A stretch of DNA of 64,000 nt from an uncultured Nitrososphaeraceae archaeon (GTDB lineage Archaea; Thermoproteota; Nitrososphaeria; Nitrososphaerales; Nitrososphaeraceae), in NCBI GenBank assembly GCA_963837175.1, contig CAWIMJ010000016.1, forward strand, positions 1 through 64,000, read 5' to 3'. The notes under the pieces are model-generated. The model was not told where the DNA came from. It did not search any database and was given only the letters and a program-made list of their open reading frames with translations. This document shows positions 21,251 to 52,394 of the stretch, piece after piece (the first letter of the stretch is position 1; the number at the start of each line of letters is the position of its first letter). The position numbers and the translations under genes are program-made.

Positions 21251-21520
21251 TTAACCAGATAATTTAGCCAAGATGGCGGCATTTTTTATCTTAGTATCTA
21301 GAAAAGATGTTATCTGTTCTGTTACTTGAACGATGAAGAATGTTGTTCCTGTACCTAGGAAAGTAGCAAAGGCTATAATTGCTTTCAGATTGTTGTTCTG
21401 GTGACGTTCCGAGACGCCATTGTCTCTCATGTATTGATGAAACTCATTGATTAGAGCAGAATTTGTTGGGTTAGGTAATGATGCGATCTTGCTTATAGTA
21501 GTTGTCGGTTTAGTAGGCAA
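21251..21520 (-). pseudogene. N-terminal fragment of a tyrosine recombinase/integrase (family 2)
   Basis: LINEFHQYMRDNGVSERHQNNNLKAIIAFA resembles Nitrososphaeraceae integrase N-termini; no catalytic domain; starts about 70 bp from a tRNA-end copy. Confidence 0.65.
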
Positions 21521-21574
21521 TTATACAGATCCTCCTTTCAAGAGATTTACGGTATAATACCTGCCTGAAGTATT

Positions 21575-21615
21575 TGAACCCATGTATATAATGGCCCCAA
21601 GGGGGTTAGATTCCC
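21575..21615. repeat. att-like site: degenerate copy of the tRNA-Ile 3' end
   Basis: TGGCCCCAAGGGGGTTAGATTCCC (21592) versus TGGGCCCAAGGGGGTTTGAACCCC (52256), 20/24; preceded by TGAACCC-N11. Confidence 0.75.
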
Positions 21616-21788
21616 GTAGGTTAAGGGGCTCATTACCATTATCAGAGATTTATCTGGTTTGCAGGTTAAAAAGCGTTTTAGTCTATTGAACCATGCTGCT
21701 CTAGATCGATTATCCTTACGTCTATATACCCCTGCTATTTAATGAATGATACCCAATAGTTGATATCTTCGGATTCAAGATCGATTTT

Positions 21789-23084: not shown

Positions 23085-23157
23085 AGTCTTGCATAACTGG
23101 ATCGTAATATAGTTATTGCTATTGTTGGCTGACTTTCTGTGAAGATACTAAGTCTTT

Positions 23158-23185
23158 TGAACCCACTTTAAAGTGGGCCCAAGGG
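23158..23185. repeat. att-like site: exact 12-bp tRNA-Ile 3' end
   Basis: TGGGCCCAAGGG at 23174 is identical to 52256..52267; it overlaps the perfect palindrome CCCACTTTAAAGTGGG (23162..23177). Confidence 0.75.
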
Positions 23186-23486
23186 TCTCCGTGACGCTAT
23201 CGGTTCTATAATAGGATTCTAAATTAAACTGGTAAAGCTAGAATTAAAGGTTTTCTTCATATTATTTCATCATCAGAGGTCAGTTTTAGCAATATAATAA
23301 GAGATGCTTCTAATTTGGGTCATAATGCATATCATAAATAGGGCACTAATATGCAAATTTGTCTCATACGATTTCTGGAAAAGATCTCCTTTTGATGTCT
23401 TTTTGGTTACTATAGATTTTCGTGCTATTGACCGTCTACTCTTAATGCTTTTTGACGATAAGGTCAGTTCTGGGTTTTCATAGGTA

Positions 23487-23534
23487 TAAGGCCAGTGGTT
23501 TGTGAACCAAATTTGACTTTTATTTTGATCTCTG
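23487..23534. repeat. Degenerate member of the 48-bp site family
   Basis: TAAGGCC-AGTGGTT-TGTGAACC-AAATTTGACTT-TTATTTT-GATCTCTG aligns without gaps to 39383. Confidence 0.55.
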
Positions 23535-23713
23535 ATAGATTTCTATATTACTTCATTACATGTTTGTATAACTCATAGGCATTCAAGCATAACAATGGAT
23601 TGCCTTAGCTATAGTTTTACATTTTTATTTCTACACAAAAAATTAAAATGATTTAAAAATGCCTTTATCATCCAAAGGATTTTAGTTCTTCCGATTTAGC
23701 ATTATTAGATTTT

Positions 23714-24226
23714 TTAAAAATTGAAGATATTTCTGATGAAATATATACAAAGGTAATAATAAGGCCAATTAGAAACATAATAAAAGCAAAAAGCATCCGA
23801 ATTATACTTGAAATATGGAGACCACCATTGATGCATCAGCGGGATAATTACTCCTAAAAACGCAAATAACCCAAAAGAAATAAATCCGAATTTCAAATGT
23901 TTTGGATAGACGAGAGAATGTAATTCTTCATTATACAATGTTAATTGTTGATTTAAAAATTTTAATTTATTCTCTTTTTCTCCTAATTCTTTTAGTAGTT
24001 CATTAAAACTTTGTTGTTCCTCTAAAGATATATTAGCTTCTATTATTCTTGAACCTATATCTTGAGTTAAAGGAGACAGTGATACTGAGGTTGAAGAAAA
24101 TGTATTTTTCTTTAATCTATCTTCTCTGATTTTGTTTAATTCGCTTATTATTGAATCTGATTGCTGTTTTAATTTTTTCAAAAAGTTTTCTGAAGGTCTG
24201 CCCTGAAAAATCTCTTGATAATACAT
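23714..24226 (-). pseudogene. C-terminal part of an AT-rich coiled-coil/TM protein
   Basis: Coiled coil followed by hydrophobic helices; probable N-terminal part at 25575..25823. Confidence 0.45.
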
Positions 24227-24229
24227 CCT

Positions 24230-25219
24230 TTATTGTCCCACTAAAGGTTGTATGTCAAGAATCACCCACCTTGCTTGAATAGCTTTAACTGGATGATAAA
24301 ATACTAACATTTTTGTACCATTAATTCCTTCTATAGTAGACCCCGACTTTCCAGCTATCGCATTTTTGAAGCTTTGAAAATTAGCAAATGTTTCATTTTG
24401 ATTAATTGATTGTTTTTTATCTGAATCAGCTATTTTCTGACCATGCTGGTCAACATAGACGATACGGTCATTGTCAGTAAGATTGAGTGATTGGAGGGAT
24501 TTATTGAAAACATCTAGGTCCAGGCCACCATACCACACTCCTACTAAAGATGGGTTATTAGTATTATTATTTTCAGATGAATAAATTGGAACCGCCATAT
24601 TCGCTTGTGGAAGACCACAACAAGCAGCAATGATTACATTGCCAAGATATGTATTATGGGTACTAACAGCTCCTTTATAATAATCTCTAAAAGCAAAGTT
24701 TGTTTTAGTGAGGTTTAATTGACGATAATACGGCTCCTCCATATACATATCACCATTAGGCATGAGGAAAGCTATAACACGAAAGTCGTTATACTTTGAT
24801 AGAATGTCTTGTGCTACTTTTCTTTTTGCTAAATCAGTATCCTTGGGTATACCATGTAAAGTATTATTAATTGAACTAGCAAAAGATACCTTTCCTACTT
24901 CTGGTAACTTACTTGTTATTTCTAAAATTGCAGCTGATTTGTTAAGTCTATTCTCTAAATTATTAGCTAAAAGTTTTATATTTAGAATTTTACTGCCCAG
25001 GGTGGTGGCATTATTTGATGATAATGACGATGGTGACGATTGATTTTCCGATGATGCTATTGGGGTGGCTTGGATTGTCCTGTCAATGCCAGTCACATTA
25101 CTACTGAACGCATATGCTGCTTGGAATAACAATAGTGTTGAAGATGCTGCTGCTACTATTCCTACTAGAACCAGAACAAGGGCTACAGATTTCTCTGAAA
25201 GGTTTCTGTTTGAAGGCAT
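24230..25219 (-). CDS. Secreted stand-alone dCache-domain protein
   Basis: Signal peptide; MPNGDMY..NFAFRDYYKGA, MAVPIY, YVDQHGQKIADSD. Confidence 0.8.
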   Translation of the reverse strand: MPSNRNLSEKSVALVLVLVGIVAAASSTLLLFQAAYAFSSNVTGIDRTIQATPIASSENQSSPSSLSSNNATTLGSKILNIKLLANNLENRLNKSAAILEITSKLPEVGKVSFASSINNTLHGIPKDTDLAKRKVAQDILSKYNDFRVIAFLMPNGDMYMEEPYYRQLNLTKTNFAFRDYYKGAVSTHNTYLGNVIIAACCGLPQANMAVPIYSSENNNTNNPSLVGVWYGGLDLDVFNKSLQSLNLTDNDRIVYVDQHGQKIADSDKKQSINQNETFANFQSFKNAIAGKSGSTIEGINGTKMLVFYHPVKAIQARWVILDIQPLVGQ

Positions 25220-25574
25220 TATTCATCTTTAGCTAAAAAAGGAGCTAATAAAAAAGTATTGCCAACCGGTTTATTGAGACTGTTCCTTCTCCTTATATCC
25301 TTATCTACTACTGCTTCCACCGCTTTTTATAGTACCATTAGCTGCAAGATGTAATACTGGTCCATCAGCACTTCCCCAAGGCTAGGGACAGCATCTATGA
25401 TATAAAGTTAGATTCAATTAAAGAGGAAGAAGCAATGACTAGAGTAATAGCTTAGCGAGAACTAAAGCCTTTGTAATATTATTATTTTCTTATATAATAA
25501 TACTCAAGCGATTAAATCATCGTAAGTGTTTATATTTGGAAAAACTGGAAAATGGAATTTATCTTTAATAATTT

Positions 25575-25823
25575 CTACAAAATATTGTAGGAGTTGGTTT
25601 GCTTTTCTTCTTGTGTATTTTTTTCTAATTTTAAATTTTTGATATTTTCAGTTTCGAAAGATATTTCAGACTTTGAATAATTAATTTTATGTTCTATTCT
25701 ACTCTTGTCACCTGCAATTGTCAAAATTTTGGTGGTATAAAAACCTGCTAAAATGGCAACAAAAGTTGCGGCAGATTGAGTTAAAGATGACATCAAAGTT
25801 TCATCGGTAAGAAAGTTTGCCAA
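25575..25823 (-). pseudogene. N-terminal part of an AT-rich TM/coiled-coil protein
   Basis: TM helix SAATFVAILAGFYTTKIL then coiled coil; same low GC as 23714. Confidence 0.4.
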
Positions 25824-26110
25824 TGTTAACTAAAATTAAGTACTTTAATAAATTTTTTAATAATTTGATCTTTTTATAATCAATAAGTGTAAAATCATTT
25901 TTTCATATGGTGGTTGTGTAAAGTAGTTTTATACTGAAACAAATTTGGCCTAAAAGGGATTAAAGTAATACTTATTTTAGTGATATTATTTAAATTACTA
26001 ACAAACTAATTCTAAATAAAGATTTGAGAACATTTTACAATTTTTAGCAAAAAATATTTGTTTAGATAAGAAAAATGTAGGAATAAAAAATTATTCATTA
26101 TTATTCAAAA

Positions 26111-26196
26111 TGGGCCAGGTCGTTTGTGAACTGTTATCGACACAAATTTGCGGCCCAAGGGTTATGAATCAAATCTGATTTGATATATGGACCCAT
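26111..26196. repeat. Two overlapping 48-bp-family sites (26111..26158 and 26150..26196), tRNA-Ile-type core
   Basis: TGGGCCA-GGTCGTT-TGTGAACT-GTTATCGACAC-AAATTTG-CGGCCCAA, then GCGGCCC-AAGGGTT-ATGAATC-AAATCTGATTT-GATATAT-GGACCCAT. Confidence 0.7.
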
Positions 26197-26244
26197 TTAC
26201 TATATTCCGTTCTTAATAAACGCAAAGTTAGATGGGTATTGGTC

Positions 26245-26292
26245 CGGGTTCGGTGGGATGCAGGACAGATTTGACTCATTTTTTCCACCCAA
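26245..26292. repeat. 48-bp site, class 2 core
   Basis: CGGGTTC-GGTGGGA-TGCAGGAC-AGATTTGACTC-ATTTTTT-CCACCCAA. Confidence 0.85.
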
Positions 26293-26426
26293 CTTAATAG
26301 TCGATATGCAGGTTAGATGGGATGCAATATACTAATGCATTTAATCCAATATAGGATTTGAGCTCAAATATGATATTACCGAAAACTCTTATAGTAAGTT
26401 GATAGCATACACTAATGCGTTAGCAG

Positions 26427-27473
26427 ATGCATTACACAAAAAAATCAAAGGAAGCTCAACTTCACCATCTAATATCGTCCTTTATCTTGTTGTTTGTGTT
26501 GATTATTTCCTCTTCAATAGTAACTAATACCCACATTGTATATGGTCAAACAAATCAAACTATAGCGAAGAATGAAGACTTACTGAATATACAAGATATC
26601 CCAGCAAAAAAAGTCCATGTAGGAGATATCGATGTTGCGTACAAAATGTTTGGAAACGGTGACCCTATAATACTTTTCAGTGGCGCCTCTGATAATATGG
26701 ATGCCTGGGACCCATCCCTTCTAAAAGGTATTTCTTCAAATCACACAGTGATTGTGTTTGATCAACGTGGAATTGGAAACACAACAGTTGGTACCAATCC
26801 ATACACTCCTCAGCAACTAGCAAACGATACAGCTGGTTTGCTTGATGCTCTGAAAATACCAAAAGCAGATGTTATGGGATATTCTCTTGGATCATATTTA
26901 GCCCAACAGCTTACAATCATGTATCCAAATAAGGTTAACAGCCTTGTACTTGTTGCTTCATCATGTGGTGGAAAAAATCATACACCTAAACCACCTGAGT
27001 TTCTAGAATTGCAATCCGAAATTGTAAACAACTCTCTACATAATATTCCCATGACTCAGGAGGAAATAAAATCGCTTGTATCTGCCTCATTAGGATCAGG
27101 ATGGATCAAATTACATCCTGAATCTCTTGAAGGATTTGAAAACATTACAACATTCCAACAATTGAAGCCTGCTGTGAACCCTGAAATGGTGAATAATCAG
27201 AATAATGTAGGAAAGCATTGGGAGGACAATCCAAACTGGAGTGGTGCTTGTGATGAGCTTGCGAAATTGGATAAACCCACGTTGGTCATAACTGGAACAG
27301 ATGATAATTTCTACGAGCCACATGTCAATTCTTTAAAGATTGCAGAAAAGATTCCAGGAGCCTGGCTTGTACAGATCAAAGATGCTAGTCATGCAGTCCC
27401 GGATCAATATCCGGATGAAATTGGTAAGATATTAAATACATTTCTATCGACGACATCAACTCCACCTAGCTAA
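26427..27473 (+). CDS. Secreted alpha/beta hydrolase
   Basis: FDQRGIG, MGYSLG, ITGTDD, DASH; signal peptide. Confidence 0.85.
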   Translation: MHYTKKSKEAQLHHLISSFILLFVLIISSSIVTNTHIVYGQTNQTIAKNEDLLNIQDIPAKKVHVGDIDVAYKMFGNGDPIILFSGASDNMDAWDPSLLKGISSNHTVIVFDQRGIGNTTVGTNPYTPQQLANDTAGLLDALKIPKADVMGYSLGSYLAQQLTIMYPNKVNSLVLVASSCGGKNHTPKPPEFLELQSEIVNNSLHNIPMTQEEIKSLVSASLGSGWIKLHPESLEGFENITTFQQLKPAVNPEMVNNQNNVGKHWEDNPNWSGACDELAKLDKPTLVITGTDDNFYEPHVNSLKIAEKIPGAWLVQIKDASHAVPDQYPDEIGKILNTFLSTTSTPPS

Positions 27474-27597
27474 TGTAGGTATTATATTGGAATAAGCTTA
27501 TCCACTATATTCCCTGAGGTTAGGCACATAATGCCATAACAAGACATCAAAATTGGGTTCAATCAAAACTAAGGCTAGCGAAATGAGGTTCCTATAA

Positions 27598-27918
<321 letters not shown>

Positions 27919-27953
27919 GATGTAAAGGTATATTTCCCTTCGAACGGAGGAAA

Positions 27954-28553
27954 TTAGGCAAAGGAGCCGGTTTTGACTTCGCCCTCACGTTTGTAGTTAG
28001 CTACGATGACTCCCTGTGGTGATACTTTTGAATCAATAAGTTTCCAACCTGCGGGGATGGTGCCTTCGGTGAAAAGTTTCCTTCCTTTTCCGAGTGTGAT
28101 AGGAAAGATTTTGAGCCAGAGTTCGCCGACCAAATCATGTTTTAATAATGTCTGGATGAGATTGCCGCTGCCGTAAACCTGCAAGTCAGGACCATCTTGT
28201 TCTTTCAGCTTCTTAATTTCATTTGCAACATCTCCTTTTAAGAAGACAGAATTATTCCATTCATGTTTTGTAAGTGAGTTTGAGGCGACATATTTTGTTA
28301 CTGTGTTGATACCAGGCCATTTATCTTCATGTTTCGGCCAATATGAGGCAAATATTTCAAATGTCCTTCTTCCAAGCAGTAAGTCAAAAGGTTTAGTCAT
28401 TTGCTCCCCCATCACCCCGTTCATGAATTCATCAAAGTATGGTACGGTCCATCCACCGTATTCAAATCCACCTGAAGTGTCTTCCTCCGGTCCGCCTGGT
28501 GCCTGCATGACACCATCCAGGGATATAAATGTGAGAATAATAATCTTTCTCAT
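27954..28553 (-). CDS. Dihydrofolate reductase / RibD C-terminal family protein
   Basis: FISLDGVMQAPGGPEED, LLLGRRTFE, VYGSGNL, PITLGKG. Confidence 0.9.
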   Translation of the reverse strand: MRKIIILTFISLDGVMQAPGGPEEDTSGGFEYGGWTVPYFDEFMNGVMGEQMTKPFDLLLGRRTFEIFASYWPKHEDKWPGINTVTKYVASNSLTKHEWNNSVFLKGDVANEIKKLKEQDGPDLQVYGSGNLIQTLLKHDLVGELWLKIFPITLGKGRKLFTEGTIPAGWKLIDSKVSPQGVIVANYKREGEVKTGSFA

Positions 28554-29217
28554 ATTCTGTCTATACTAGCTAGGATTCTAAATTTTTTTCTCTGTTACAA
28601 GGATTTTCAATGCGTTTTTGATATTTGATAGCGATCTAATATCCCTTTTTGATGTAGGAATATTGCCTTTCTTAGTCAGAGCAATATTGAAAACTAGTTT
28701 AGCTATACGAGGTTCGGAATATGGTTGGTTCTCTTTTCTAGAAAAATTTCTATTTTATCTGAATATTTTGCACAGATACAAACTATGGATGCAAGAGATA
28801 CTCTAAAGTATACTATAGGTGTAGATGTTGTAGCTGAAATGTTAGATTTCATGCCAGCTGGTCGATAGTTGCTGCTGATGTTTGGTTGTTATTCTGTGCA
28901 CATATTGGACTGGCCGAAGGCCATATACCTGACAATACTCCTGTCAACAAGAACATTGTCATCATTGGAATGAACATTGAAATTATGTTCATATTCTGGG
29001 AAACAAGCATGTCCTATTTAAGTAAAAATGGGATATTCATTATGTAGTCCTTGGACCCTATTTCCATAAACCCATAGCCGTAGTATACATTTGCAGTATA
29101 TTCTTGGCGTTAGATGTATTCATTTTATACCAATTAGAAATTGTGGGATTAGTTCCCTGCATGTATAAGGGTCCTGTTAATTTCTATATTTAGTTTTTTT
29201 CTTTTACTAACGTTCTA

Positions 29218-29297
29218 TGGGTTGGTTAGAACTTAAGACAAATCTGACATCTATGCGGTGGGATGCGGGACAAATTTGACTCTATTTTGCCACCCAG
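29218..29297. repeat. 48-bp site (29250..29297, class 2) preceded by a truncated degenerate copy (29218..29250)
   Basis: GGTGGGA-TGCGGGAC-AAATTTGACTC-TATTTTG-CCACCCAG; upstream TGGGTTG-GTTAGAA-CTTAAGAC-AAATCTGACAT. Confidence 0.8.
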
Positions 29298-29394
29298 ATT
29301 ATATTTCATGAATCGATAATTTGGATATTGTGTGCATGCTGTGGCAATTTGGGCGTAAGTTGAGTAGTTTATTGATTTATTATTATTATTATTA

Positions 29395-29903
29395 TCATCT
29401 TCTAAGATAATCCTCTGGTCTTATAACCGCTATTAATTCTGCTCTGATATTGTTTTTTTCCTGTTTAAGATCAGACCATTTCTCTATCGGTAATTTCAAA
29501 TGAGCTAGAGCACATGCGGACATTGTTATATCTAATAAACCTGTAAATACTTCCATTGTTTCTTCGACTGCTGGGTTATGTCCTACAAATAATATACGCA
29601 CATATCTATCAGAAAGTCCTTCTATGATTTTCAAGTAGTCTTTTGGTTTAGCCTTATAAAGGGACTGTTCAAAAACAATATCTCCTTTATATTCACAACC
29701 CTCTGCCACAAGCTCTGTTGTAGTTTTAGCCCGTACTGCAGTTGAGCTTAAAATGAAATCTGGGATTAGATCTTTATCTCTGATTAGCTTTCCCATTTGT
29801 AATGCATCCTTCTTTGCAAGTTCATCTAATGGCCTTTCATGATCTGCTATGTTTGGGTCTTTCAAGCTAGATTTTGCATGACGAAGAATAAGTAGGGTTT
29901 CAA
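29395..29903 (-). CDS. sixA: SixA-like histidine phosphatase
   Basis: In-frame TLLILRHAKSS upstream of the called start; DHERPL, SSTAVRA, VGHNP; the likely TTG start appears shifted by 1 nt. Confidence 0.8.
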
Positions 29904-30664
29904 TTTTTTATTATATCAACTACATATGGCAGGTTTTTTATTGTATATCTGAGTCCCAATGTATGTGTGGCTGTTATTAGATTTCTTTTCATCTCTAATA
30001 GTATTCAACAATACATATTCTTCTTATCATATTATATTCTCTGAAGACAAATATTTCATCATTTTCATGTTCTGTTATTCTGAAGATGTGAAAATGCACC
30101 TTAGAAATCAACATCCATTAGCTTCTTTCATATGCTTGTTTTATAAGAGATAATGCATAGGGATTTCACTTTTTTCTTTAATAGTTATTTCAGTTTTACC
30201 GCTTGAGTAATGACCTATATCCTTAACGTCTCTTGCTTTCTTTAAAGGATCATCTACTTGGTCTATTTCGATATTAAGATATATGCCTTAAGCTTTGATT
30301 TTAGAAAAAGAAAACTCACAAAGGCTGATTCTTTATGTAATGTAATAATGAAACGGCTAAGAAGTAGAATTATTCGATTGTTTGGGACTGGTCATATGCT
30401 GATGCTGATGATGATGGTAAACATCAGAAATTGGAGTATCTAGTAAAGACAAAAGAAATGGTATCCATATATTGTATATGTATATACGCCACTCTGTGCG
30501 ATTATGCTATCTATTATATTTACAAGTACAAAAAAACATCGCAGAGCAATTGAACAAATAACAACAGAAAACACATCATAAAACTATAAATAACATATAT
30601 ATCATGTTCTTGTCATAAATGGTAGAATTTAGCAGTTGTTGCTGCTATAACAAGATTATTTATA

Positions 30665-31043
30665 ATGAGTTATGAAACCCCAATGAAAACGACCATTTCT
30701 CTTATATTGTTTTCACTTTTAACTATTACATTGCTGATATCTACTATAGTATTTTCTTCAGAAATAGGTATAGCTAATGCACAGGGATATTCTGTAATTG
30801 CTACTATACCTGTTGGTAATGATCCATTTGGAGTTACTATTAATCCAACTAATGGCTTGGTATATGTGGCCAATGCTGATTCTAATACATGTCTCTGTAA
30901 TAAATCCTGCAACTAACACAGTAGTTGCTACTATACCTGTTGGTGGTGGTCCAAATGGAGTTGCTATTAACCCAACTAATGGCTTGGTATATGTAACCAA
31001 TGATGATTCAAACACAGTCTCTGTAGTTTCTACAGTATCATAA
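30665..31043 (+). CDS. Secreted YVTN/YncE beta-propeller repeat protein (only two blades), +1 frameshift near 30890
   Basis: Two [19 protein letters not shown](A/T)N..SNTVSV repeats. Confidence 0.7.
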
Positions 31044-31529
31044 CCCCTACTACTACCACCAACTACTACTATACCAGGTTTAGATGCAGCAGCAAAAGCA
31101 GCTAATCAAACATGCAGAGAAAAAGCAGTTGATTAAAGTGCTATAGTAGTAATGATTTCTCAAAGCAGCATGGAAGTGATGATGATGATAGGGTAACAAG
31201 ACTTCCTGACTGGCAGTAGATATAGTGATAATAAAGAAGATGATGGTGTTATGACGTCATTAGAAAGTGTTGATGAGGAATTAAAAAGAGTGCAGCAAAT
31301 GCATCAGGTATGTCTATACAACCATAATAGATTGAGGATTGATCTTAATTTCGTAGCCGCATATATGAGATAACAACTTCATATATCTCTTGATACGTAT
31401 TGTTCTAGTTTAATCATTCATCCTTTGATAAATGCAATGGTGAATCCAGTTGACATACTACAGTTTAAGTGGATGGGCTTCAAGCGGTTTGCAATAGACT
31501 TATAATCAATACTCTTCCTTGGACCAATC

Positions 31530-31744
31530 CAATCGTTGAAAGAGAACTTATGGAAATATGACACAGGAAGCTGGTGGTCATATTATATGATCAGATGGAG
31601 AATTTGGCCTCCTCTGATTACCATACATTACATATTACTCAGTTGAAAAATCTATATGAAATCATCGGCGAACACATATTAAAAGAGTATAGCGATAGAT
31701 TTGAAAGATATAAGAGAAATGCACCGATAGAGACGACTTCTTAG
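31530..31744 (+). pseudogene. C-terminal relic resembling the D-glucuronyl C5-epimerase family
   Basis: LWKYDTGSWWSYY / LASSDYHTLHITQLKNLYEIIGEHILKEYSDRFERY across a frameshift. Confidence 0.55.
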
Positions 31745-31901
31745 AGATATCTTTAAGAATTGCTGCAATGATAACACAGGGCTATTGAATCCAGAATGCC
31801 ATCCAGCTTATCTATGAATCGGATCAACAGCTAAAATCTATTATGAGCTGTTCAATTTATAAAATAATATCTCCTAATAATAATTAACATGAGCTCATTT
31901 A

Positions 31902-33120
31902 TCAATCAGTAATATCGCCTTTACTTTTACCAAAACTTTCTGGCTCTTCTGTTCTGTACACGTCACTTTGATTAGGTAAGATTGAGAATTGAGAAGATAG
32001 AGGAGACGATAACACAGGATTTGAAGAAGAAGCGGCAGCAATAGTAGCTATAGCATTGTTTGTCGATACTTCAACAAGGTTTTGATAATTCTTTTCTGCC
32101 AAGTCTAATATCCTATCCTTATTGGTTTCAAGGTATTTGATAGCGTTATCGTTGTCATCGTTATCATTGTGTCTACGGTCGTTTACATTAGTAAGTGATA
32201 TTGTGTAAATAGAATTAACCATTTTTGGATTAGCTTTTAACGTCTGGAGTAGTGCTATAAAAGATACTGATATTACTTGTTTATTTTCTGATAAAACGGC
32301 TTTAACATTTTCTTTGACTATCTGCTTTCTTTGAAAAGCCTTCTTCATTATCATTGTTATTCAGAATATTAGCAATCAACTTTTCTATTCTATCCTTTTT
32401 GTCAATAAGCTCATGTAATTCTTGTTTTATTCTCTTGCATTCTTGTTCACAAGAGAATGCAGTTTTATCTAATATTGATATTTTATATTTCAAAGCTTCT
32501 ATATCATTTACCAAACGTTGTCTTGTGTGTTGTAGTTTTTCTACCTCTTCTTTTAGCTGGTTATAGAGACTTTCCATATAAGGAAGTTTATCGGCAGCAA
32601 TATCTACAGTATTCACCACTTTCTCTACACTCATTCCGCTTTCCGCTATTAGTTCTTTGTATAATTTCAAAAACGGTCCCAATTGGCCATTTGTCTCTTT
32701 GTATACGGAAATGAGTATATCCAATTGCTTTAGCTTGCAATATTCTATGAACAATTTGGTTGCCTCTGGCTCTCTCAGGCTGAGTTCAATGGCAACTTCC
32801 ACAGGTTTCTTACCTTTAGAAAAGAGTTTGTAGGCTTTGGAAGATATCTCTTCTTCCTGTTGCTGACGTTTATGTTTTTGTAGTCTGGCTTGTTCTTCCT
32901 TTACGATAGCGTGTATATCACGTGGTGAGATGTGCTCTATTTGCGCAATTTCAGCGTAAGATTTGTGCTGGTTGAAATATAGATCTATTACCCGTTTTCT
33001 TCTGTCTTCTGTTATCTGCAAATGTATTTCTAATAGTATAGTTAATCGATCCTTAAAAAGGGAACGATTCTGATACCTCTTGCTCTCACATACGATATCA
33101 AAATATTCCCTTATTATCAT
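31902..33120 (-). CDS. HTH plus coiled-coil protein, split by a frameshift near 32335
   Basis: RVIDLYFNQHKSYAEIAQIEHISPRDI and KKPVEVAIELSL HTHs; ORFs 32302 and 31902 overlap. Confidence 0.7.
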
Positions 33121-33805
33121 CTACTTTCTTCTTTATAGTAATGCTTCGTAAAGTACTAAAGATTGAGTGTTCTTGTGATTTTACAATAATAACATCCAAA
33201 ATCGGCTGAGACAGTAAAGCAAGCAACAATGAAAATTATATTAGAAATAGATAGATTCTCTCTATTCAAACCAGAATAGAAAATGGTTCTCTAAAAGTTA
33301 TTAATCGGGAAATTTCTCACATTTCACCATCCTCCACGCATAGGTCGGTCTAAATCCGTGATCACTTCTAATAAGATTATAATAATCACCATGCAATGAG
33401 AAGAAATGTACTTCCGCAGATGAAACATTTGAATTCTTTCTCAACCATAGATTAGATTCCTACTAATAACAATAAGAAATATTTTACTCATCCATCCATC
33501 CATCTAATACTATTCCCAAATGCCCAATGAAGAAATCGAATTGCTTAACCTTATGGCTGCAGAGACTAGCGCTATAAGGTTGTTTTATGTCTTTAATCTT
33601 CTGGAGAAATTAGTGTGTATGCTCAAAGAAAGACAATGCAAGATATATTGTTTGGATTAATAAGCGATTTTGTATCTGTCATTAACCTACTCGCATTCTT
33701 TAAATTCCAAAAGGATCTCCTTCTTATCTTGTTGCTTTGTGTCTCTAATACTAATCAGTATTGTTGTTGCATATAATAATAATATATACCTGAACTAATT
33801 GTTGC

Positions 33806-34141
33806 ATGACACACATAAATAGTAGCAAATCTGTCTATCTGTTACATTTGTCTCACTATATCTTACTCATAAATTGGACAGAGCAAGGCATTAACAAAAT
33901 TAAAGAATCTTCAGACCGTTTCAGTTCCTTTAAAGCATCGGTCGAAAAAGCAGGTGGAAAATTGATTGGAGGTTACTATACTTTCGGAGAATATGATGTG
34001 GTAATAATTATAGAAGCTCCAAATGATGAAGCAGTACTGTCTCTGATGCTCAAAGTTGGGTCAGCTGGAAATGTGAGAACCAAAACCTTGAAAGCATTTG
34101 TCGCTGAGGAAGGATTGAAGATTATAAAGGATCTTCCATAA
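33806..34141 (+). CDS. GYD domain protein
   Basis: NWTEQG, YYTFGEYDVV, GNVRTKTLKAF. Confidence 0.85.
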   Translation: MTHINSSKSVYLLHLSHYILLINWTEQGINKIKESSDRFSSFKASVEKAGGKLIGGYYTFGEYDVVIIIEAPNDEAVLSLMLKVGSAGNVRTKTLKAFVAEEGLKIIKDLP

Positions 34142-34232
34142 TCCATTGATTAACAGATAGATAAACGATTATCAGAGCGCATAAAACCATATTACCTAGA
34201 ATTAATAGTAGATTCTCATTCATATTGCCTAT

Positions 34233-34675
34233 GACGAGTACGATGTCTGGGTCTGACTTCATACGATAACCTTCTGTCACCGCTTGTACCTCATTTTGTT
34301 GTCCGACAGGAAAGTATGCCGCTTCATCTAACAATATAAATTTGACATTTGTATAACCTCTCAGGGTCTGTACGGTATGCGAAGGAAAAGCTTGTATTGT
34401 TGTATCTTTTATGTAAATTATAGGGCCTACTTGCTTGCATTCTACCGCAACTTTACCAGCGATAAGTAAATCATGTAACCTATCAATTAAATCCTCAGCT
34501 AAGTTAATTCTATGGCCGGTTACTATATGGAAATGTGATCCGTTATAATCATCATTTTTACTGCAAGATAGGCCATATACATAAGTATTAATTCAGTAAT
34601 ACCCAACCCTCTTGCTTTCTTGACAAATACGCTCTTATCATTATCCAGGGCATTGACTAACTGCATTTCATAATC
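34233..34675 (-). pseudogene. Terminase large subunit ATPase-domain relic
   Basis: Manual translation DYEMQL..VFVKKARGLGITE (Walker A-like)..AFPSH..LRGYTNVKFILLDEAAYF (Walker B); truncated at both ends. Confidence 0.7.
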
Positions 34676-34682
34676 AACTGCC

Positions 34683-36128
34683 TTATTCTACATGATGTTC
34701 ATAAATTAATTGATCATAGAACCTAACAGACTTTATGTTTACAAATTCAAACATCCCATATCTTGATAATTCTCTACCAAATCCACTATTCTTTACTCCT
34801 CCAAATGGGACACGAGGATCTGAAATTACTACATTATTCACAGTAACCATTCCTGATTGAACCATTGACGATAACCTTTCTGCCTTGTCTAAATCTTGGG
34901 TCCATATACTTGCTCCAAGGCCAAATTTAGAATCATTTGCAATTCTAATAGCTTCTTTTTCCTCATCAACTGTAATTATTGGAGCAACAGGACCAAATAC
35001 TTCTTCCTGTGCTATTTCCATATGAAGTAATACATTCTTAAGGACAGTTGGACGGAAGAAGTAACCTTTATTTTTTATTCTTTCCCCTCCTGTAAGAAGT
35101 TCTGCTCCTTCCTTCACAGTTCTCTTTACAATACCTTCCATGTTTTCTAAGCTTTTAGCGTTAACAACAGGTCCAATATCTGTATCATCTGATAGAGGGT
35201 CTCCTACTTTGAGTTTTTCAGTCTTTTGTACGAATTTTTCGGTAAATTCGTTTGCTACCTTCTTTACAACAATAAATCTCTTGGATGCTATACAGCTTTG
35301 TCCACAATTAATAAATCTACCTTTGACAGCACCAGTAGATGTTTTTTCAATATCTGCATCTTCACATACTATAAAAGGATCACTTCCACCTAATTCCAAA
35401 ACTGTCTTCTTTATTTGCGAAGTAGCTCTCTGTGCTACTTTAGCACCTACTGGAACACTTCCAGTAAAGGTTACTGCGCTGATGCCATCTGAATCTATAA
35501 GTGTCTCAGCGGCACTAGAATCTGCAACGAGTGTTTGGAAAACTCCTTGTGGCACTCCAGCTTTATCAAATGTTTTTTCAATTTCTATTCCACATTGCAT
35601 TGTAGCACTTGCAGGTTTCAATACAATAGTATTACCAACCATTAAAGAAGGAGCAGCAAATCTTAGTCCCTGCCAGTAAGGAAAATTCCATGGCATTATA
35701 CTAGCAATTACCCCAAGAGGTTCAAATGTTATGATACTTTTTCTTGCATCTGTATTAACGACTTCACCAGTAGCAAATATCTTTCCATGATCTGCATAAT
35801 ATTCTATTGTCCATGCACATTTCTCAACCTCAGACCTTGATTCTTTTATTGCTTTTCCCATTTCCAATGTAGCGGTTTTGGCTAGGTTTTCTTTGTTTTT
35901 TCTAAGTTCTTTAGCAAATGCATAGAGGAAATCTACACGCTTATCAATATCTTCTTTCCATTCTAAGAATGCATTTTTTGATTTCTTTACCGTATCGTTC
36001 AGTTGCTCTTTGCTAATTATTGTATACTCGTTAAGAACCTCTTCTGTGGCTGGGTTGATTGTCTTTAATTTTTTATCTGTAATTGCTGTTGTAGGTGCTG
36101 ATAATGAGTCTTTTACGTCATCCTTCAT
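34683..36128 (-). CDS. NAD(P)-dependent aldehyde dehydrogenase (succinate-semialdehyde dehydrogenase-like)
   Basis: IMPWNFP, FTGS, LELGGSDP, NCGQSC, EEVFGP, PFGGVKNSG. Confidence 0.9.
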   Translation of the reverse strand: MKDDVKDSLSAPTTAITDKKLKTINPATEEVLNEYTIISKEQLNDTVKKSKNAFLEWKEDIDKRVDFLYAFAKELRKNKENLAKTATLEMGKAIKESRSEVEKCAWTIEYYADHGKIFATGEVVNTDARKSIITFEPLGVIASIMPWNFPYWQGLRFAAPSLMVGNTIVLKPASATMQCGIEIEKTFDKAGVPQGVFQTLVADSSAAETLIDSDGISAVTFTGSVPVGAKVAQRATSQIKKTVLELGGSDPFIVCEDADIEKTSTGAVKGRFINCGQSCIASKRFIVVKKVANEFTEKFVQKTEKLKVGDPLSDDTDIGPVVNAKSLENMEGIVKRTVKEGAELLTGGERIKNKGYFFRPTVLKNVLLHMEIAQEEVFGPVAPIITVDEEKEAIRIANDSKFGLGASIWTQDLDKAERLSSMVQSGMVTVNNVVISDPRVPFGGVKNSGFGRELSRYGMFEFVNIKSVRFYDQLIYEHHVE

Positions 36129-36541
36129 GGATTTATCACTCCTCTGCCCGTGATTTTCCCATCTTTTAGTTTAGAGAGTGCTTCTCTAGCTTGATCAAGC
36201 TTAAACCTTTCTGAAACAACAGGTTTAATTATTCCTCTCTTTGCCAATGATACAAGCTCTACCCTTTCATTTTTACTAAATCCTTCTACTTGTTCACCGA
36301 AACTATCCACAATACCTGCAATCTCGTTTCCTAGGGTAAGAGGATATTTTACACCTCTGTCTATAGTTTTTAATTGTTGCCCACCTATACCTTCATAATA
36401 ACCTTTCCATACGTGAACATCGCTATGACATACACCGGAAGATTGAATCTTGACTAGAACCTGTGTACCTTTTGATGTAGGCGTTTGAAGTTCTTGTATT
36501 TGTAGAGGTTCATTCAATTTAACGATTCTAGCAGCCTTCAT
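36125..36541 (-). pseudogene. Zn-alcohol dehydrogenase with a large in-frame internal deletion
   Basis: N-terminus with GVCHSD joined directly to the C-terminal ELVSLAKRG..GRGVINP; Rossmann domain missing. Confidence 0.8.
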
Positions 36542-36776
36542 GCCAAATCTTACTGATGAAATGTACTATTTACGTGATTCTAATTGAGGTCAAGATCAAA
36601 ATGTATATAAGAATTCCAGCCTCCCAGCTAACTATATTCTCATCTTTGAAAATTATTATTATAAGCAGTGATTAGTTTAGTTATTGCTATTATTACTACT
36701 ATTCAAATGTACGATGGTGTGCTGCTTTGACATGTGATCTAAGAAATCTGCCAGCGGTCCTTTGATTTCTTTAACG

Positions 36777-37154
36777 TTATGTTTGAACAATACCATTTCC
36801 TCCGCTGCCAACTGCAGATACTCCTTTTCCTTCCTTTCTGCAATAGATATTTACCTTCCATCTTTCATCATCAATCTTTGGAAAGTCAGATCTATAGTGA
36901 CCACCTCTACTCTCTTGTCTCATCAATGCACTTCTTATTATGGCCCCACAAGCAATAAGTGATGATTCCACCTGGCAAGTCAATACAATATTTTTCAGAA
37001 TTATTATTATCGAAATTTCGAACTCTTTTATATCAATATTATCTTTATTAGAATAAAACTCATTCTTTAATTCTAAAATTCTTTTCAATCCACTTTGAAG
37101 CCTTGTCTGTTCTCTCACTATTCCTGCGTGATGTAAAAACTCCGTCGATGCCAT
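36777..37154 (-). pseudogene. C-terminal fragment of a succinate dehydrogenase/fumarate reductase flavoprotein-family gene
   Basis: AGIVR, SALMRQESRGGHYRSDFP. Confidence 0.75.
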
Positions 37155-37180
37155 AGGCGTAGATAATGTTCACCTGTTGT

Positions 37181-38110
37181 CTAACGTGTGACTGCTGCAG
37201 TGGAAAATACCTCCGGATGCGCAGTTACATACTCTCGAACTCTCATGCTTGGTTTTCCGGTTAACTTCTGCACGTCCGATGTCAACCGATCGTAGCGATT
37301 TTCCGCGATGAGCTTAGCCATAGTGGAAACGTGGTGAAAAACGTATTGAGGTAAATTGAGTGGCAATAATTCTTCCTTCAGCCACTTGTCGTATGGCGTG
37401 TCCACATATTTCACTGGGCGATTTAGTGCGATCGCGTATTCTTTTGCCATCTCATTCATGTCTTCCGATCGAGGACCAGTCAGTTCATAGACCTTCCCTC
37501 GGTGACCGGTGGGATCTTCCAAAATTGTGGTAACGACCCTTGCCACATCGCTAGCGGAAATTGGTGAAGTTCGCGCCGAGCTAAATGGAAATTTAATTGT
37601 CCCATCTTTGGCAATTGATGAGGCCGCCATGCTAGAGAAGAAAGGTTCCAGGAAGATCGTCGACCTCACATGTGCTACAGGCACTCCAGACCAGTTAAGA
37701 ACTTGCTCGCCGAGCCAATGTTGTTGCTGCTGAGGTGATTCGGTCATTTCAGTTAGACTCATCTGCGAAACTGTCATTTGTGAGATGTTTACGAGAATCT
37801 CGAAGTCGGGGATTTCTTTTGCTGCGGCTGCTGCAATAGCCGTAGCCTGAAGATATGGTGACGAGATACTCATGCCAAAATACATCCGCTTGCAACCGCG
37901 CAATGCTCTTACTACATCAGCACTATTTGTGAGGTCGGCGACGACAAGTTCGGCTCCCATTTCGCTCAACACTTGAGATCGTTCGTCGAGGCGGTGTACA
38001 AGCGCTCTGACTTGAAGATCGCGCTCCCGAAGAAGTTTGACGACACCTCGCCCTACGGAACCAACATTTCCGGCGGCTCCAGTAACAAGGATGGGTGTGT
38101 TGTTTGACAT
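37181..38110 (-). CDS. NmrA-like NAD(P)-binding protein
   Basis: ILVTGAAGNVG, DVARV, VYELTGP; visibly GC-richer. Confidence 0.85.
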   Translation of the reverse strand: MSNNTPILVTGAAGNVGSVGRGVVKLLRERDLQVRALVHRLDERSQVLSEMGAELVVADLTNSADVVRALRGCKRMYFGMSISSPYLQATAIAAAAAKEIPDFEILVNISQMTVSQMSLTEMTESPQQQQHWLGEQVLNWSGVPVAHVRSTIFLEPFFSSMAASSIAKDGTIKFPFSSARTSPISASDVARVVTTILEDPTGHRGKVYELTGPRSEDMNEMAKEYAIALNRPVKYVDTPYDKWLKEELLPLNLPQYVFHHVSTMAKLIAENRYDRLTSDVQKLTGKPSMRVREYVTAHPEVFSTAAVTR

Positions 38111-38164
38111 GGCTATTCCTCTAATGTGATTAGATATAAATATGAAAAGAGGTAGTAAATGCTC

Positions 38165-38652
38165 AGTAATTCCTTCTTTTGTTCTTCAACTGGAAGAGAT
38201 TGAATGTCTGCCTGTTAGTCCTCTGTATTTTCCTGTTACATTTACTCCTCCTGAACCCTCGGTATCATCTGATAATACTGCCTTTGATACCTCATCGAGC
38301 CTAAGAGTCCGATAAGCAAATTTGAAGATTGTATTTGCACCGTTGGTTTACCAAAAACATTATGGAGATCAATATGTGTCTGACTTCTAATATATGGAAT
38401 ACCAGCAGTGTTAAAGTCGATTATAGAATCTAAATTGTTTGCCATACACCTGTTGTGTAATACCACAAGGTCTGAATCAACCCCATCTAGGTATTTTTGA
38501 GTGTCTTCATGATATTTGGAAACACCAGTGGAATACCATCCAATTCAAAAGTCATATTTCATTAGTTCCTGATTAATACTTACCAAAAGTTCACATTCTG
38601 TATTGTCAGAATTTGAAAAGTCTGATATGTGAAGGACTTTACTGTTTCCTTG
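38165..38652 (-). pseudogene. Family B DNA polymerase 3'-5' exonuclease-domain relic
   Basis: KVLHISDF..ELL..IGWYSTG..DSDLVVLHNRC..HIDLHNVF / YRTLRLDEVSKAVL..GKY, with a stop and frameshifts. Confidence 0.6.
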
Positions 38653-38653
38653 G

Positions 38654-39340
38654 TTATTCACAAAGGCAGTTGCTGTAAGCTATCCAGTCTTGTAACGCTT
38701 GATAAGCTTCTGGTGAAATGTATGTGCAATATTGCTCTTCCTCTCCTACATAAACTAAAATCTTTGCAGCTATAATCTCGCTATTGTTATATATAGGCTG
38801 TATATGACCCCATTCTAAGATAACCCCATGCCCCAAGTCTTATTCCAGAAGATACCATAGTATATACAATTAGCTTTATTCTTCTGTCTGGATATTCTAC
38901 AATTTTACGTATTTCTTCAAGAGTAGGGGCGCGATCATCTGCCCATTTTCTTCCTTTTGGAAGACCAGGTGTTATTTTCTTCCAAGAGATAAGGATGTCG
39001 TTCATTTCTGTGAAAAGCTTTATGGCTTTAAAGTAGTTGCGTATAGTTGGCCCTGTGATTTCCTTTTTATAGGCTCGTTCCTTCTGAACTTGGATGAAAC
39101 TCATAACACTCTAAATACCCAATCATTATCATCATTTCTTCTCTCAACAAAGATTCGACAGCGCTATTCTGTGGTAGTACCTTCAATTCCAATAAAGGAG
39201 AAAAAAAGATTGAGTCTTGTCGTGTATCTATCTCTTGTTACTGGAGAATTCAGTGCATATAAAAATAATATATAGGGATCTGACGACAACGATGAGGATG
39301 AGGATAACGATGACGCTTCTATCAATTGTTTTATTTTCAC
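38654..39340 (-). pseudogene. Tyrosine integrase (family 1), interrupted and C-terminally truncated
   Basis: DPYILFLYALNSPVTRDRY..TIRNYFKAIKLF..DDRAPTLEEI..SSGIR; has a stop and frameshifts; no HxxR/Tyr region. Confidence 0.8.
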
Positions 39341-39382
39341 CTTATTATTTGTGGAACCGATTAAAAAGAAGTGATATCACAA

Positions 39383-39430
39383 TGGGCTCAAGGGTGTGTG
39401 AATCAAATTTGACTCAAATGTTGGGCCCAA
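39383..39430. repeat. 48-bp site with tRNA-Ile-type core; attP-like junction
   Basis: TGGGCTC-AAGGGTG-TGTGAATC-AAATTTGACTC-AAATGTT-GGGCCCAA; left flank GAACC..TGATATC matches the flank at 52228..52255. Confidence 0.85.
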
Positions 39431-52203: not shown

Positions 52204-52255
52204 TCTTTGTTACCTTTTGTTATATTAGAACCCTAATTAAGGACTGATATCGGAT

Positions 52256-52329
52256 TGGGCCCAAGGGGGTTTGAACCCCTGGCCGACCGGTTATGAGCCG
52301 GTCGCTCTACCAGGCTGAGCTATGGGCCC
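52256..52329 (-). tRNA. tRNA-Ile2 (CAT anticodon)
   Basis: Cloverleaf GGGCCCA/TGGGCCC, GCTC/GAGC, ACCGG-CTCATAA-CCGGT, AGGGG-TTCAAAC-CCCCT; Ile-type acceptor stem. Confidence 0.9.
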
Positions 52330-52394
52330 ATGATCAAAAAGTCGATAATGGATAACGATATATAGGTTTTGAGATCGATATCAGTACATATTAC

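What the first reader, a model, noticed from the sequence alone, without database searches (positions are those of the whole stretch)
23487..39430. Candidate new system: dispersed 48-bp tRNA-derived recombination sites punctuating a gene-cassette array
Seen: at least 8 same-orientation intergenic sites (23487, 26111, 26150, 26245, 27638, 29218 partial, 29250, 39383). They align almost without gaps as YGGGYYC-N7-N8-AAATTTGACTC-N7-..CCCA. Between 21.6 and 29.3 kb these and the tRNA cores delimit segments of about 1.4-2.6 kb with one or two unrelated genes of differing base composition. The left arm mimics a tRNA acceptor/T-arm, which reads as a tyrosine-recombinase core GGGYYCA-N8-TGAACCC. Inference: an integron-like capture platform in which a tRNA end serves as the primary site and small cassettes are moved by tRNA-targeting integrases rather than IntI. 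I cannot confirm novelty without searches.
Basis: partly seen in the sequence, partly recalled or inferred. Interest (0 to 1): 0.85.

Follow-up and report, generated by a model that had tools for sequence, protein, structure and literature searches.

The report
tRNA-derived integrase sites punctuating gene modules
The repeated 47-base sites are attachment sites of tRNA-targeting integrases, copied from tRNA 3' ends, and in this soil archaeon and its relatives they mark the points where small blocks of accessory genes are gained, lost and reshuffled.

Summary
The sites are real. All eight lie where stated and in one orientation, but they fall into four classes. Read on the minus strand, each is an element-derived arm (motif GAGTCAA[A/T]T) followed by a copy of a tRNA 3' end. 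Sites 39383 and 26150 copy tRNA-Met, as do remnants at 23178 and 21594. Sites 26245, 27638 and 29250 copy tRNA-Lys(CTT), 26111 copies tRNA-Val(GAC), and 23487 copies a fourth tRNA.

Window 21.2-52.3 kb is an island anchored on tRNA-Met (52255-52330). It was built by serial integration and carries integrase debris.

The Lys-type site has 61 copies in this genome, and 28 of 30 adjacent pairs are co-oriented. It has 31-66 copies in each of five genomes of the genus. It was found in 40 of 61 genomes of the family and in none of 73 genomes from other families.

Segments between sites are 0.5-26 kb (median 3.7 kb), mostly lack an integrase and hold ordinary accessory genes. Their order differs between congeners exactly at the sites.

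This is not an integron: there is no IntI, no attC signature and no uniform gene orientation. Independent movement of circular cassettes is not shown.

Verdict: a new variant of tRNA-targeted accretion arrays that behaves partly like an integron.

The parts
52255..52330 (-). tRNA-Met(CAT), the live anchor (attL side) of the island. Homology to four congeners begins exactly at its 3' end.
51682..52209 (-). N-terminal fragment of a family-B tyrosine integrase, starting 46 nt after the tRNA. The rest is replaced by a TauE gene (50725-51672).
39383..39430 (-). Met-type site: element arm plus a copy of the tRNA-Met T-loop to 3' end (17 of 20). It is the junction between two family-B elements.
38675..39280 (-). 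Family-B integrase pseudogene fragments (ORF 38787-39104), directly downstream of site 39383 in tRNA sense.
31902..33120 (-). Element backbone gene (HTH plus coiled coil) in two overlapping frames. It is 56-62% identical to an ORF of the tRNA-Arg element on G005:C15.
29218..29296 (-). Lys-type site (29250-29296), cut after ..CCACCG, followed by a degenerate tandem copy (29218-29249).
27685..29249 (.). 1.6-kb module: RibD_C gene (27954-28553, -) and an AAA-lid gene fragment (27646-27918, +) that abuts the next site. Missing in G005 exactly from site to site.
27638..27684 (-). Lys-type site.
26292..27637 (.). 1.3-kb module with one alpha/beta hydrolase gene (26427-27473, +). It is flanked by Lys-type sites in G004 as well, with other neighbours there.
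26245..26291 (-). Lys-type site.
26150..26195 (-). Met-type site, the distal end of the element that starts at 39383.
26111..26149 (-). Val-type site. It matches tRNA-Val(GAC) of C17 and its downstream flank at 16 of 17.
23487..23530 (-). Site of a fourth class. Its best match is the 3' end of the unassigned tRNA at C7:53034 (16 of 19).
23156..23190 (-). Remnant of the tRNA-Met 3' end (12 of 12) with an 8-nt-spaced imperfect inverted repeat.
21515..21650 (-). Fossil of the tRNA-Met 3' end (15 of 16) plus the arm of a family-A element. By eye it resembles the sequence behind the live tRNA-Met of G005:C8.
21251..21520 (-). N-terminal fragment of a family-A integrase, 51% identical over 81 aa to the 473-aa frame on C54.

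Best explanation
The sites are attachment sites of tyrosine-recombinase integrative elements that target tRNA genes.

Anatomy. On the tRNA-sense strand each site has two parts. The first is about 25 nt from the element: a short inverted-repeat arm, an A/T hexamer and the motif GAGTCAA[A/T]T. The second is about 22 nt copied from the T-loop to the 3' end of one tRNA.

How arrays form. Integration at a tRNA gene, or at a site copy already present, leaves a site on both sides of the insert. Repeated integration therefore builds co-oriented arrays, with the newest element next to the tRNA. Window 21.2-52.3 kb is such an array on tRNA-Met, with fossils of Met-, Lys-, Val- and a fourth-type site.

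The abundant class. The Lys(CTT)-derived site now delimits many small segments that lack an integrase. These are remnants or non-autonomous modules. They are gained, lost and reordered by recombination between site copies.

Shown: site anatomy, tRNA origin, anchoring on tRNAs, co-orientation, and rearrangement breakpoints at the sites.

Inferred: that the roughly 380-aa family-B integrases do the recombination, that exchange lies in or next to ..CCACCG.., and that modules can be moved in trans.
For: tRNA origin and anchoring:
- Each site's best tRNA match is one specific gene, and the next-best tRNA scores far lower (15 against 9 for the Lys type).
- In the closed genome G007, tRNA-Lys(CTT) is followed by six co-oriented Lys-type sites over 42 kb.
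- Family-B integrase genes or fragments lie directly behind tRNA-Lys, -Met, -Val, -Ile and one unassigned tRNA in G000, and behind tRNA-Arg in G005 as an intact 383-aa ORF.
- PHROGs calls these proteins integrase, E 2.5e-11 and 8.6e-9.

Accretion at tRNA-Met:
- The tRNA-Met flank is conserved at 82-84% in four congeners, starting at the tRNA 3' end.
- G005 has a family-A integrase there, and G002 a family-B one 83% identical to the window's.
- The window keeps the G005-type junction as a fossil at 21.5 kb.

Behaviour of the Lys-type sites:
- 28 of 30 adjacent pairs are co-oriented, and 4 of those 28 segments hold an integrase-like hit.
- Homology between the flanks of different copies stops or starts within about 25 nt of the site centre in most of the 80 pairs listed.
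- The single site of G005:C15 equals the left side of 29250 joined to the right flank of 27638.
- In G004:C329 a C22 segment is joined to a C29 segment at one site.
- 9 of 31 internal homology ends in six relatives' contigs fall within 100 nt of a site. By my arithmetic about 3 would be expected.
Against: - No family-B integrase in G000 is clearly intact. The one behind tRNA-Lys(CTT) is in two frames, and the G007 array holds none.
- Lys-type sites lie inside islands anchored on other tRNAs, and inside a tRNA-Arg element whose own attR is at G005:C15:22185. Simple tandem integration at tRNA-Lys does not explain this.
- A module indel or swap at 47-nt direct repeats can also arise by homologous recombination.
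- Near-identical contig pairs in G000 inflate the counts.
- The integrases score below Pfam's cut-off for PF00589: 21.5 and 24.3 bits against 27.1.
Confidence: 0.6

Rival explanations
1. Active cassette system. The integrase-less one- or two-gene modules excise as circles carrying one Lys-type site and reinsert at any other copy. They are moved in trans by family-B integrases. This would be a functional analogue of integron cassettes without IntI or attC.
For: - 9 of 28 co-oriented segments are under 2 kb and 21 are under 5 kb. 24 of 28 have no integrase-like hit.
- The same modules occur with different neighbours on both sides in different congeners.
- The site is kept over a whole family, in 40 of 61 genomes.
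- Site copies sit inside larger elements of other tRNA specificity.
Against: - No circle or empty-site junction was seen. Only assembled contigs were available, and their joints had 22-nt sides.
- Genes face both ways and gene debris abuts sites.
- The site between G000 and G005 is no better conserved than its flanks: 3 mismatches against about 93% flank identity.
- No intact integrase was found in G000.
Confidence: 0.3
2. Passive fossils only. The sites are dead ends of decayed large elements, and all rearrangement at them is ordinary homologous recombination between 47-nt repeats or differential decay.
For: - Integrase pseudogenes and gene fragments are common in the islands.
- Degenerate copies exist, with E values up to 0.008.
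- Several window sites are clearly ends of 12-13 kb elements.
Against: - It needs many independent internal deletions that each spare both flanking sites.
- Two copies (29250 and C22:11473) are cut at the same point after ..CCACCG. U1-flank copies share a 3' variant while differing in the arm. Both suggest a preferred exchange point.
Confidence: 0.25
3. The repeat is a regulatory or structured-RNA element (promoter, terminator or small RNA), not a recombination site.
For: - An outer 5-bp inverted repeat is paired in 91.9% of cells.
- Sites are intergenic, often about 115-190 nt from a gene end.
Against: - There is no fixed distance or orientation to genes.
- There is one compensatory change, not above shuffles: 133 of 500 shuffles reach it.
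- No Rfam family matches.
- This reading explains neither the tRNA identity, the anchoring on tRNA-Lys, nor the flank reassortment.
Confidence: 0.04
4. The repeat is the end of a transposon or a miniature inverted-repeat element.
For: - It has sharp outer boundaries and a short terminal inverted repeat.
- One copy abuts a truncated AAA-lid gene fragment.
Against: - 28 of 30 neighbours are co-oriented.
- I noticed no repeated second end or target duplication in the printed flanks, though this was not searched for.
- No transposase gene family turned up among the clustered neighbouring ORFs, most of which were not scanned against Pfam.
Confidence: 0.03

Closest known systems
tRNA-targeting integrated elements of Thaumarchaeota and other archaea, including tandem arrays at one site (PMC6563490, passages read; PMC8371274, passages read)
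   Same: A tyrosine recombinase, recombination with the 3' part of a tRNA gene, direct repeats flanking the element, re-use of the same site to form arrays, and integrase loss after integration.
   Different: - Reported thaumarchaeal att sites are mostly under 26 bp (median 17). Here a 47-nt site is conserved across a family.
- One site class has 31-66 copies per genome, spread over islands at several other tRNAs.
- It delimits integrase-less segments as small as 0.5-1.6 kb.
- I saw no description of this in the passages read. Supplementary tables were closed and may list such elements.
Integrons, including archaeal ones (PMC9668308, passages read)
   Same: Co-oriented arrays of short recombination sites separate small accessory-gene units. 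Spacing is often under 4 kb, many arrays lack the integrase nearby, and gene order is shuffled at the sites.
   Different: - There is no IntI (best 28.4 bits against a cut-off of 265).
- The site has no R-box (GTTRRRY) signature and derives from a tRNA end.
- There is no attI or common promoter.
- Genes face both ways, and the arrays are anchored on tRNA genes.
Accretion and cis-mobilisable elements (CIMEs) of streptococcal integrative conjugative elements (recalled; no call, no paper read here)
   Same: att-flanked, integrase-less segments sit in tandem with integrase-bearing elements at a tRNA or gene 3' end, and are thought to be moved with or by the neighbour's integrase.
   Different: That system is bacterial, with few units per locus. 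Here there are dozens of units per genome, at many loci, with heterologous att classes mixed in one island.
Integrase-mediated 'gene capture' in Sulfolobus chromosomes (She et al. 2001; seen only as a title in the reference list of PMC8371274)
   Same: The idea that integrated elements whose integrase is lost become fixed and add genes next to tRNA genes.
   Different: Those integrases split their own gene on integration. Here the integrase ORF starts 46-90 nt behind the tRNA and is whole in G005.

Membership tests
Integron | Integron integrase IntI with its specific extra domain | tested here: not met
   TIGR02249 searched in the whole genome. Best hit 28.4 bits against a cut-off of 265.
Integron | attC sites with R''/L''-L'/R' boxes and the GTTRRRY core | tested here: not met
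   Read from alignment A1: neither end of the site fits GTTRRRY or RYYYAAC. IntegronFinder itself could not be run.
Integron | Cassettes with ORFs generally in one orientation behind a common promoter and attI | tested here: not met
   The hydrolase gene is antisense and RibD_C sense relative to the sites. Histidine kinases are sense. No attI or intI is adjacent.
Integron | Clusters of at least two sites less than 4 kb apart | tested here: met
   15 of 28 co-oriented neighbour distances are under 4 kb.
tRNA-targeting tyrosine-recombinase integrative element | Tyrosine recombinase gene | tested here: met
   PHROGs integrase, E 2.5e-11 and 8.6e-9. PF00589 scores 21.5 and 24.3 bits, below the cut-off. 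R, HxxR, H and Y are readable in the 381-aa ORF (my reading).
tRNA-targeting tyrosine-recombinase integrative element | att core identical to the 3' part of a tRNA gene | tested here: met
   15 of 15 for tRNA-Lys(CTT), 17 of 20 for tRNA-Met, 16 of 17 for tRNA-Val.
tRNA-targeting tyrosine-recombinase integrative element | Integrase next to the tRNA, with a direct repeat of the tRNA end at the far side | tested here: met
   In G005:C15: tRNA-Arg at 754-828, integrase at 896-2047, repeat at 22185-22206. In the window: tRNA-Met, integrase fragment, site 39383.
tRNA-targeting tyrosine-recombinase integrative element | Integration and excision activity | not testable with these tools
   Only assembled contigs of public runs were available.
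SSV-type (suicidal) integrase element | attP inside the integrase ORF, so the gene is split on integration | tested here: not met
   Whole 383-aa ORF with its own start 68 nt behind tRNA-Arg. The window's fragment starts with its own Met 46 nt behind tRNA-Met.
Miniature inverted-repeat element or transposon end | Paired ends, target duplication, orientation independent of neighbours | tested here: not met
   28 of 30 neighbours are co-oriented. Flanks differ on both sides; no duplication was noticed by eye, and none was searched for.

The most novel reading that the evidence does not exclude
The tRNA-Lys(CTT)-derived 47-nt site works like an attC. Single-gene, integrase-less modules excise as circles and reinsert at any of the dozens of site copies. 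They are moved in trans by a divergent family of roughly 380-aa tyrosine recombinases. This would be an IntI-independent cassette system, confined to one family of soil ammonia-oxidising archaea. It would turn over accessory genes such as histidine kinases and hydrolases, and would ride inside larger tRNA-targeting elements.
Probability: 0.3. Interest if true: 0.85.

Novelty: new variant of a known kind. Interest (0 to 1): 0.6.

Why it matters
Soil ammonia-oxidising archaea of this family have large genomes with expanded accessory gene families, and how they acquire and shuffle genes is poorly known.

A conserved 47-nt recombination site with dozens of copies per genome, bounding the units that differ between congeners, gives a concrete and testable route for that gene flux. 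It also gives a sequence model for finding the islands in fragmented metagenome bins. The repeats may also contribute to breaks in these assemblies: many sites lie near contig ends.

If the small modules are moved in trans, this would be a second, independently evolved cassette-type system, derived from a tRNA end.

Tried and rejected
- Public reads. All 24 runs listed are kept as assembled contigs. Four were laid on 21000-40500. The only joints between sites had 22-nt sides, which is repeat cross-matching, and one 'goes back' joint (32779 to 21529) is unrelated to sites. This says nothing about circles or deletions.
- Covariation of the outer inverted repeat. One compensatory change, not above shuffles, so no case for a folded structure.
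- Rfam scans at gathering and E-value thresholds. Only tRNA-Met; weak snoRNA-like hits lie inside genes.
- Strict IUPAC pattern of the Lys-type site in IMG/VR viral contigs: 0 matches. No free element carrying the site was found. One pattern only, exact matching.
- Left boundary of the island. The acyl-CoA dehydrogenase at 19674-20954 has no match in the six congeners searched at E 1e-30, and the synthetase matches only at 72-74%. The left end is therefore not fixed.
- A reading as a split SSV-type integrase (fragments at 21.3 and 38.8 kb) was dropped. The two pieces belong to different integrase families.
- Earlier notes of this scan: nothing on record.
- IntegronFinder could not be run.


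Full report
THE OBSERVATION

The window holds one tRNA gene, tRNA-Met(CAT) at 52255-52330 on the minus strand. ARAGORN and Rfam find none in 19-42 kb.

A repeat search returns a clean three-copy family of 47 nt at 26245, 27638 and 29250 (100/83/79% identity). It also pairs 23497 with 39393 and 26165 with 39399.

The central 11-mer alone is only modestly enriched: 7 matches with up to 1 mismatch against a mean of 2.85, and 2 of 100 shuffles reach 7. A profile of the whole site finds the three copies at E 7.5e-17 to 3.2e-15.

The segments between them have GC from 0.30 to 0.40.

WHAT THE SITES ARE

Read on the minus strand, which is the strand of tRNA-Met, each site ends in a copy of a tRNA 3' end. 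I scored every site against all 37 tRNAs that ARAGORN finds in the genome.

| Site(s) | Best tRNA match | Score |
|---|---|---|
| 26245, 27638, 29250 (consensus) | tRNA-Lys(CTT), C7:3527-3621 | 15 of 15 (next best tRNA 9) |
| 39383 | the window's tRNA-Met | 17 of 20 |
| 26150 | tRNA-Met | 10 of 10 |
| remnant 23178 | tRNA-Met | 12 of 12 |
| remnant 21594 | tRNA-Met | 15 of 16 |
| 26111 | tRNA-Val(GAC) of C17, with its downstream flank | 16 of 17 |
| 23487 | unassigned tRNA at C7:53034 | 16 of 19 |

Upstream of the tRNA-derived part, all classes share an element-derived arm with the motif GAGTCAA[A/T]T. The Lys and Met classes also have a short outer arm complementary to part of the tRNA-derived end.

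In the 32-copy alignment the conserved block runs for about 47 nt, from ..TGGGTGG.. to ..GAACCCG. Flanks are unrelated on both sides.

THE WINDOW'S ISLAND

In tRNA sense the order is as follows:
- tRNA-Met.
- A family-B integrase N-terminal fragment starting 46 nt later (51682-52209). Its remainder is replaced by a TauE gene.
- About 12 kb of accessory genes and debris.
- The Met-type site 39383.
- A second family-B integrase pseudogene (38675-39280).
- About 9 kb that includes an element backbone gene shared with a tRNA-Arg element of G005 and gene fragments.
- Three Lys-type sites separating a RibD_C module and a hydrolase module.
- A Met-type and a Val-type site at 26111-26195.
- Further segments, ending with a fossil tRNA-Met end at 21594 followed by a family-A integrase fragment (21251-21520).

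Three results show this is accretion at tRNA-Met:
- The tRNA's other flank is conserved at 82-84% in four of six congeners, and that homology begins exactly at the tRNA 3' end.
- G002 has a family-B integrase there, 83% identical to the window's. G005 has a family-A integrase there.
- The sequence behind G005's live tRNA-Met closely resembles, by eye, the window's fossil at 21515-21600.

The oldest insert has been pushed 31 kb away by later ones. The left end of the island is not fixed.

THE ABUNDANT LYS-TYPE CLASS

In the 3.81-Mb genome the profile finds 61 copies at E up to 0.01, on 31 of 58 contigs. Of 30 adjacent pairs on one contig, 28 are co-oriented. One exception is 138 kb apart, the other 3 kb.

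The 28 co-oriented distances run from 457 to 26167 nt, with a median of 3658. Nine are under 2 kb and 21 under 5 kb. Four segments contain an integrase-like hit. Several contig pairs are near-duplicates, so these counts are somewhat inflated.

Genes next to the sites are ordinary accessory genes. A histidine kinase family is the commonest, ending about 115 nt before the site. Others, as I read the printed cluster sequences, include alpha/beta hydrolases, a methyltransferase, response regulators, repeat proteins and transporters. Only the window's own ORFs were scanned against Pfam. Genes occur in both orientations.

A sequence-only model was run over three sets of genomes:
- The five genomes of the genus searched have 31-66 matches each.
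- Across the family, 40 of 61 genomes in 13 of 18 genera have a match.
- In the order-wide sample of 81 genomes, all four with a match (G000 included) belong to this family. None of the 73 genomes from 19 other families has one.

ANCHORING AND ENZYMES

In the closed genome G007, which belongs to another genus, tRNA-Lys(CTT) at 2091279-2091368 is followed by six co-oriented Lys-type sites up to 2133219. Two of them carry the tRNA's own downstream flank.

In G000, family-B integrase genes or fragments lie directly behind tRNA-Lys(CTT), tRNA-Met, tRNA-Val, tRNA-Ile and the unassigned tRNA. None is clearly whole. The one behind tRNA-Lys is in two frames.

Whole ORFs of 383 and 381 aa exist in G005. 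PHROGs calls them integrase. Pfam's PF00589 scores them just under its cut-off. There is no integron integrase.

The integrase behind tRNA-Lys is 55-67% identical to those lying between Lys-type sites in G005, but only 42% identical to the one behind tRNA-Arg. That fits classes of differing specificity.

REARRANGEMENT AT THE SITES

Within G000, homology between the flanks of different copies usually covers one side only. It ends or begins within about 25 nt of the site centre.

Between genomes:
- G005:C15 has a single site at 16116-16171. Its left part and flank match window site 29250, and its right flank matches window site 27638. The 1.6-kb RibD_C module plus one site is therefore an indel from site to site.
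- In G004:C178 the hydrolase module again lies between two Lys-type sites, but its neighbours differ from those in G000.
- In G004:C329 one site joins a segment that G000 has on C22 to one it has on C29.
- Array segments of C32 and C22 recur in five congeners as separate pieces of 0.15-2 kb, several of which end at the sites.
- Over six relatives' contigs, 9 of 31 internal homology ends lie within 100 nt of a site. By my arithmetic about 3 would be expected.

Two hints place the exchange point near ..CCACCG..:
- Copies at 29250 and C22:11473 are cut at the same point there.
- Copies sharing one downstream flank family share a 3' variant while differing in the arm.

WHAT REMAINS UNEXPLAINED

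Lys-type sites occur in islands anchored on tRNA-Met, -Val, -Ala and -Arg. In G005:C15 they lie inside an element whose own tRNA-Arg repeat is at 22185. Tandem integration at tRNA-Lys alone does not give this.

Three routes are possible, none tested:
- Elements carrying an intact Lys-type site enter by homologous recombination with related resident elements.
- Related integrases cross-react through the shared arm.
- Small site-bearing modules are inserted in trans.

COMPARISON AND VERDICT

The kind is known. tRNA-targeted tyrosine-recombinase elements, their tandem arrays and integrase loss are described for archaea, including Thaumarchaeota (PMC6563490 and PMC8371274, passages read).

Compared with the passages I read, the following looks new:
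- A 47-nt site conserved across a family. Reported thaumarchaeal att sites have a median length of 17 bp.
- Its amplification to dozens of copies per genome, across islands at several tRNAs.
- Its role as the boundary of small integrase-less modules that are reshuffled between congeners.

Supplementary tables were closed and may list related elements.

It fails the defining tests of an integron (PMC9668308, passages read), though it resembles one in layout.

Public-run data were contigs only and could not show circles. I rate it a new variant of a known kind. There is about a 30% chance that the small modules form a genuine trans-mobilised cassette system.

Noticed in passing
L006 (G004:C178) 2194-2292; G000 copies e.g. 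C8:7751-7842, C28:5287-5364, C33:5219-5294: A second short dispersed repeat of about 75-95 nt is inserted into a Lys-type site in G004. It has at least 10 copies at 82-92% identity in G000, so it may be a miniature transposable element.
   Followed up: no
window 46700-47605 (+): A 301-aa ORF with Arrestin_N (E 1.6e-18) and Arrestin_C (E 7e-8) Pfam matches lies inside the tRNA-Met island. This is an arrestin/Spo0M-like fold protein in an archaeon.
   Followed up: no
window 30665-31043 (+): Two overlapping short ORFs with a 127-nt tandem duplication (86% identity). They are fragments of a 344-aa repeat protein that is whole at C9 (about 16.5-17.6 kb). More gene debris in the island.
   Followed up: partly
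window 36125-36541, 36777-37154, 27646-27918: Truncated pieces of an alcohol dehydrogenase, of a fumarate-reductase flavoprotein C-terminal domain, and of an AAA+ lid domain. The last begins exactly at the outer edge of site 27638.
   Followed up: partly
G000 contig pairs C18/C9, C30/C31, C26/C27/C35, C28/C40, C10/C11, C45/C51, C23/C35: Stretches of 1-6 kb at 97-99.7% identity around sites on different contigs. These are either recent segmental duplications or unresolved strain variants in the assembly, and they inflate copy counts.
   Followed up: no
G000:C7:53034-53130 (-): ARAGORN reports a tRNA with a four-base anticodon (caat) and no amino acid, directly followed by a family-B integrase with in-frame stops. 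It is probably an intron-bearing tRNA that was mis-parsed.
   Followed up: no
G005:C17 2408-10126 and 39315-47164: A direct duplication about 37 kb apart, seen because both copies match the same G000 pieces in the same order. Both include Lys-type sites.
   Followed up: no
window 26208-27509: In four soil or rhizosphere runs, summed contig depth over the hydrolase gene is 40-490 against 1-12 in the three bins to its right and 3-8 in the bin to its left. The gene family is far more abundant in those communities than its neighbours here.
   Followed up: no
G000:C2:28642-29859 (-) and tRNA-Ala(CGC) 29810-29885 (-): The open frame of a 406-aa family-A/C integrase (PF00589, 63 bits) runs into the adjacent tRNA-Ala gene. 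An identical tRNA-Ala 3' end lies at C16:165501-165576, with a Lys-type site 2.2 kb downstream.
   Followed up: no
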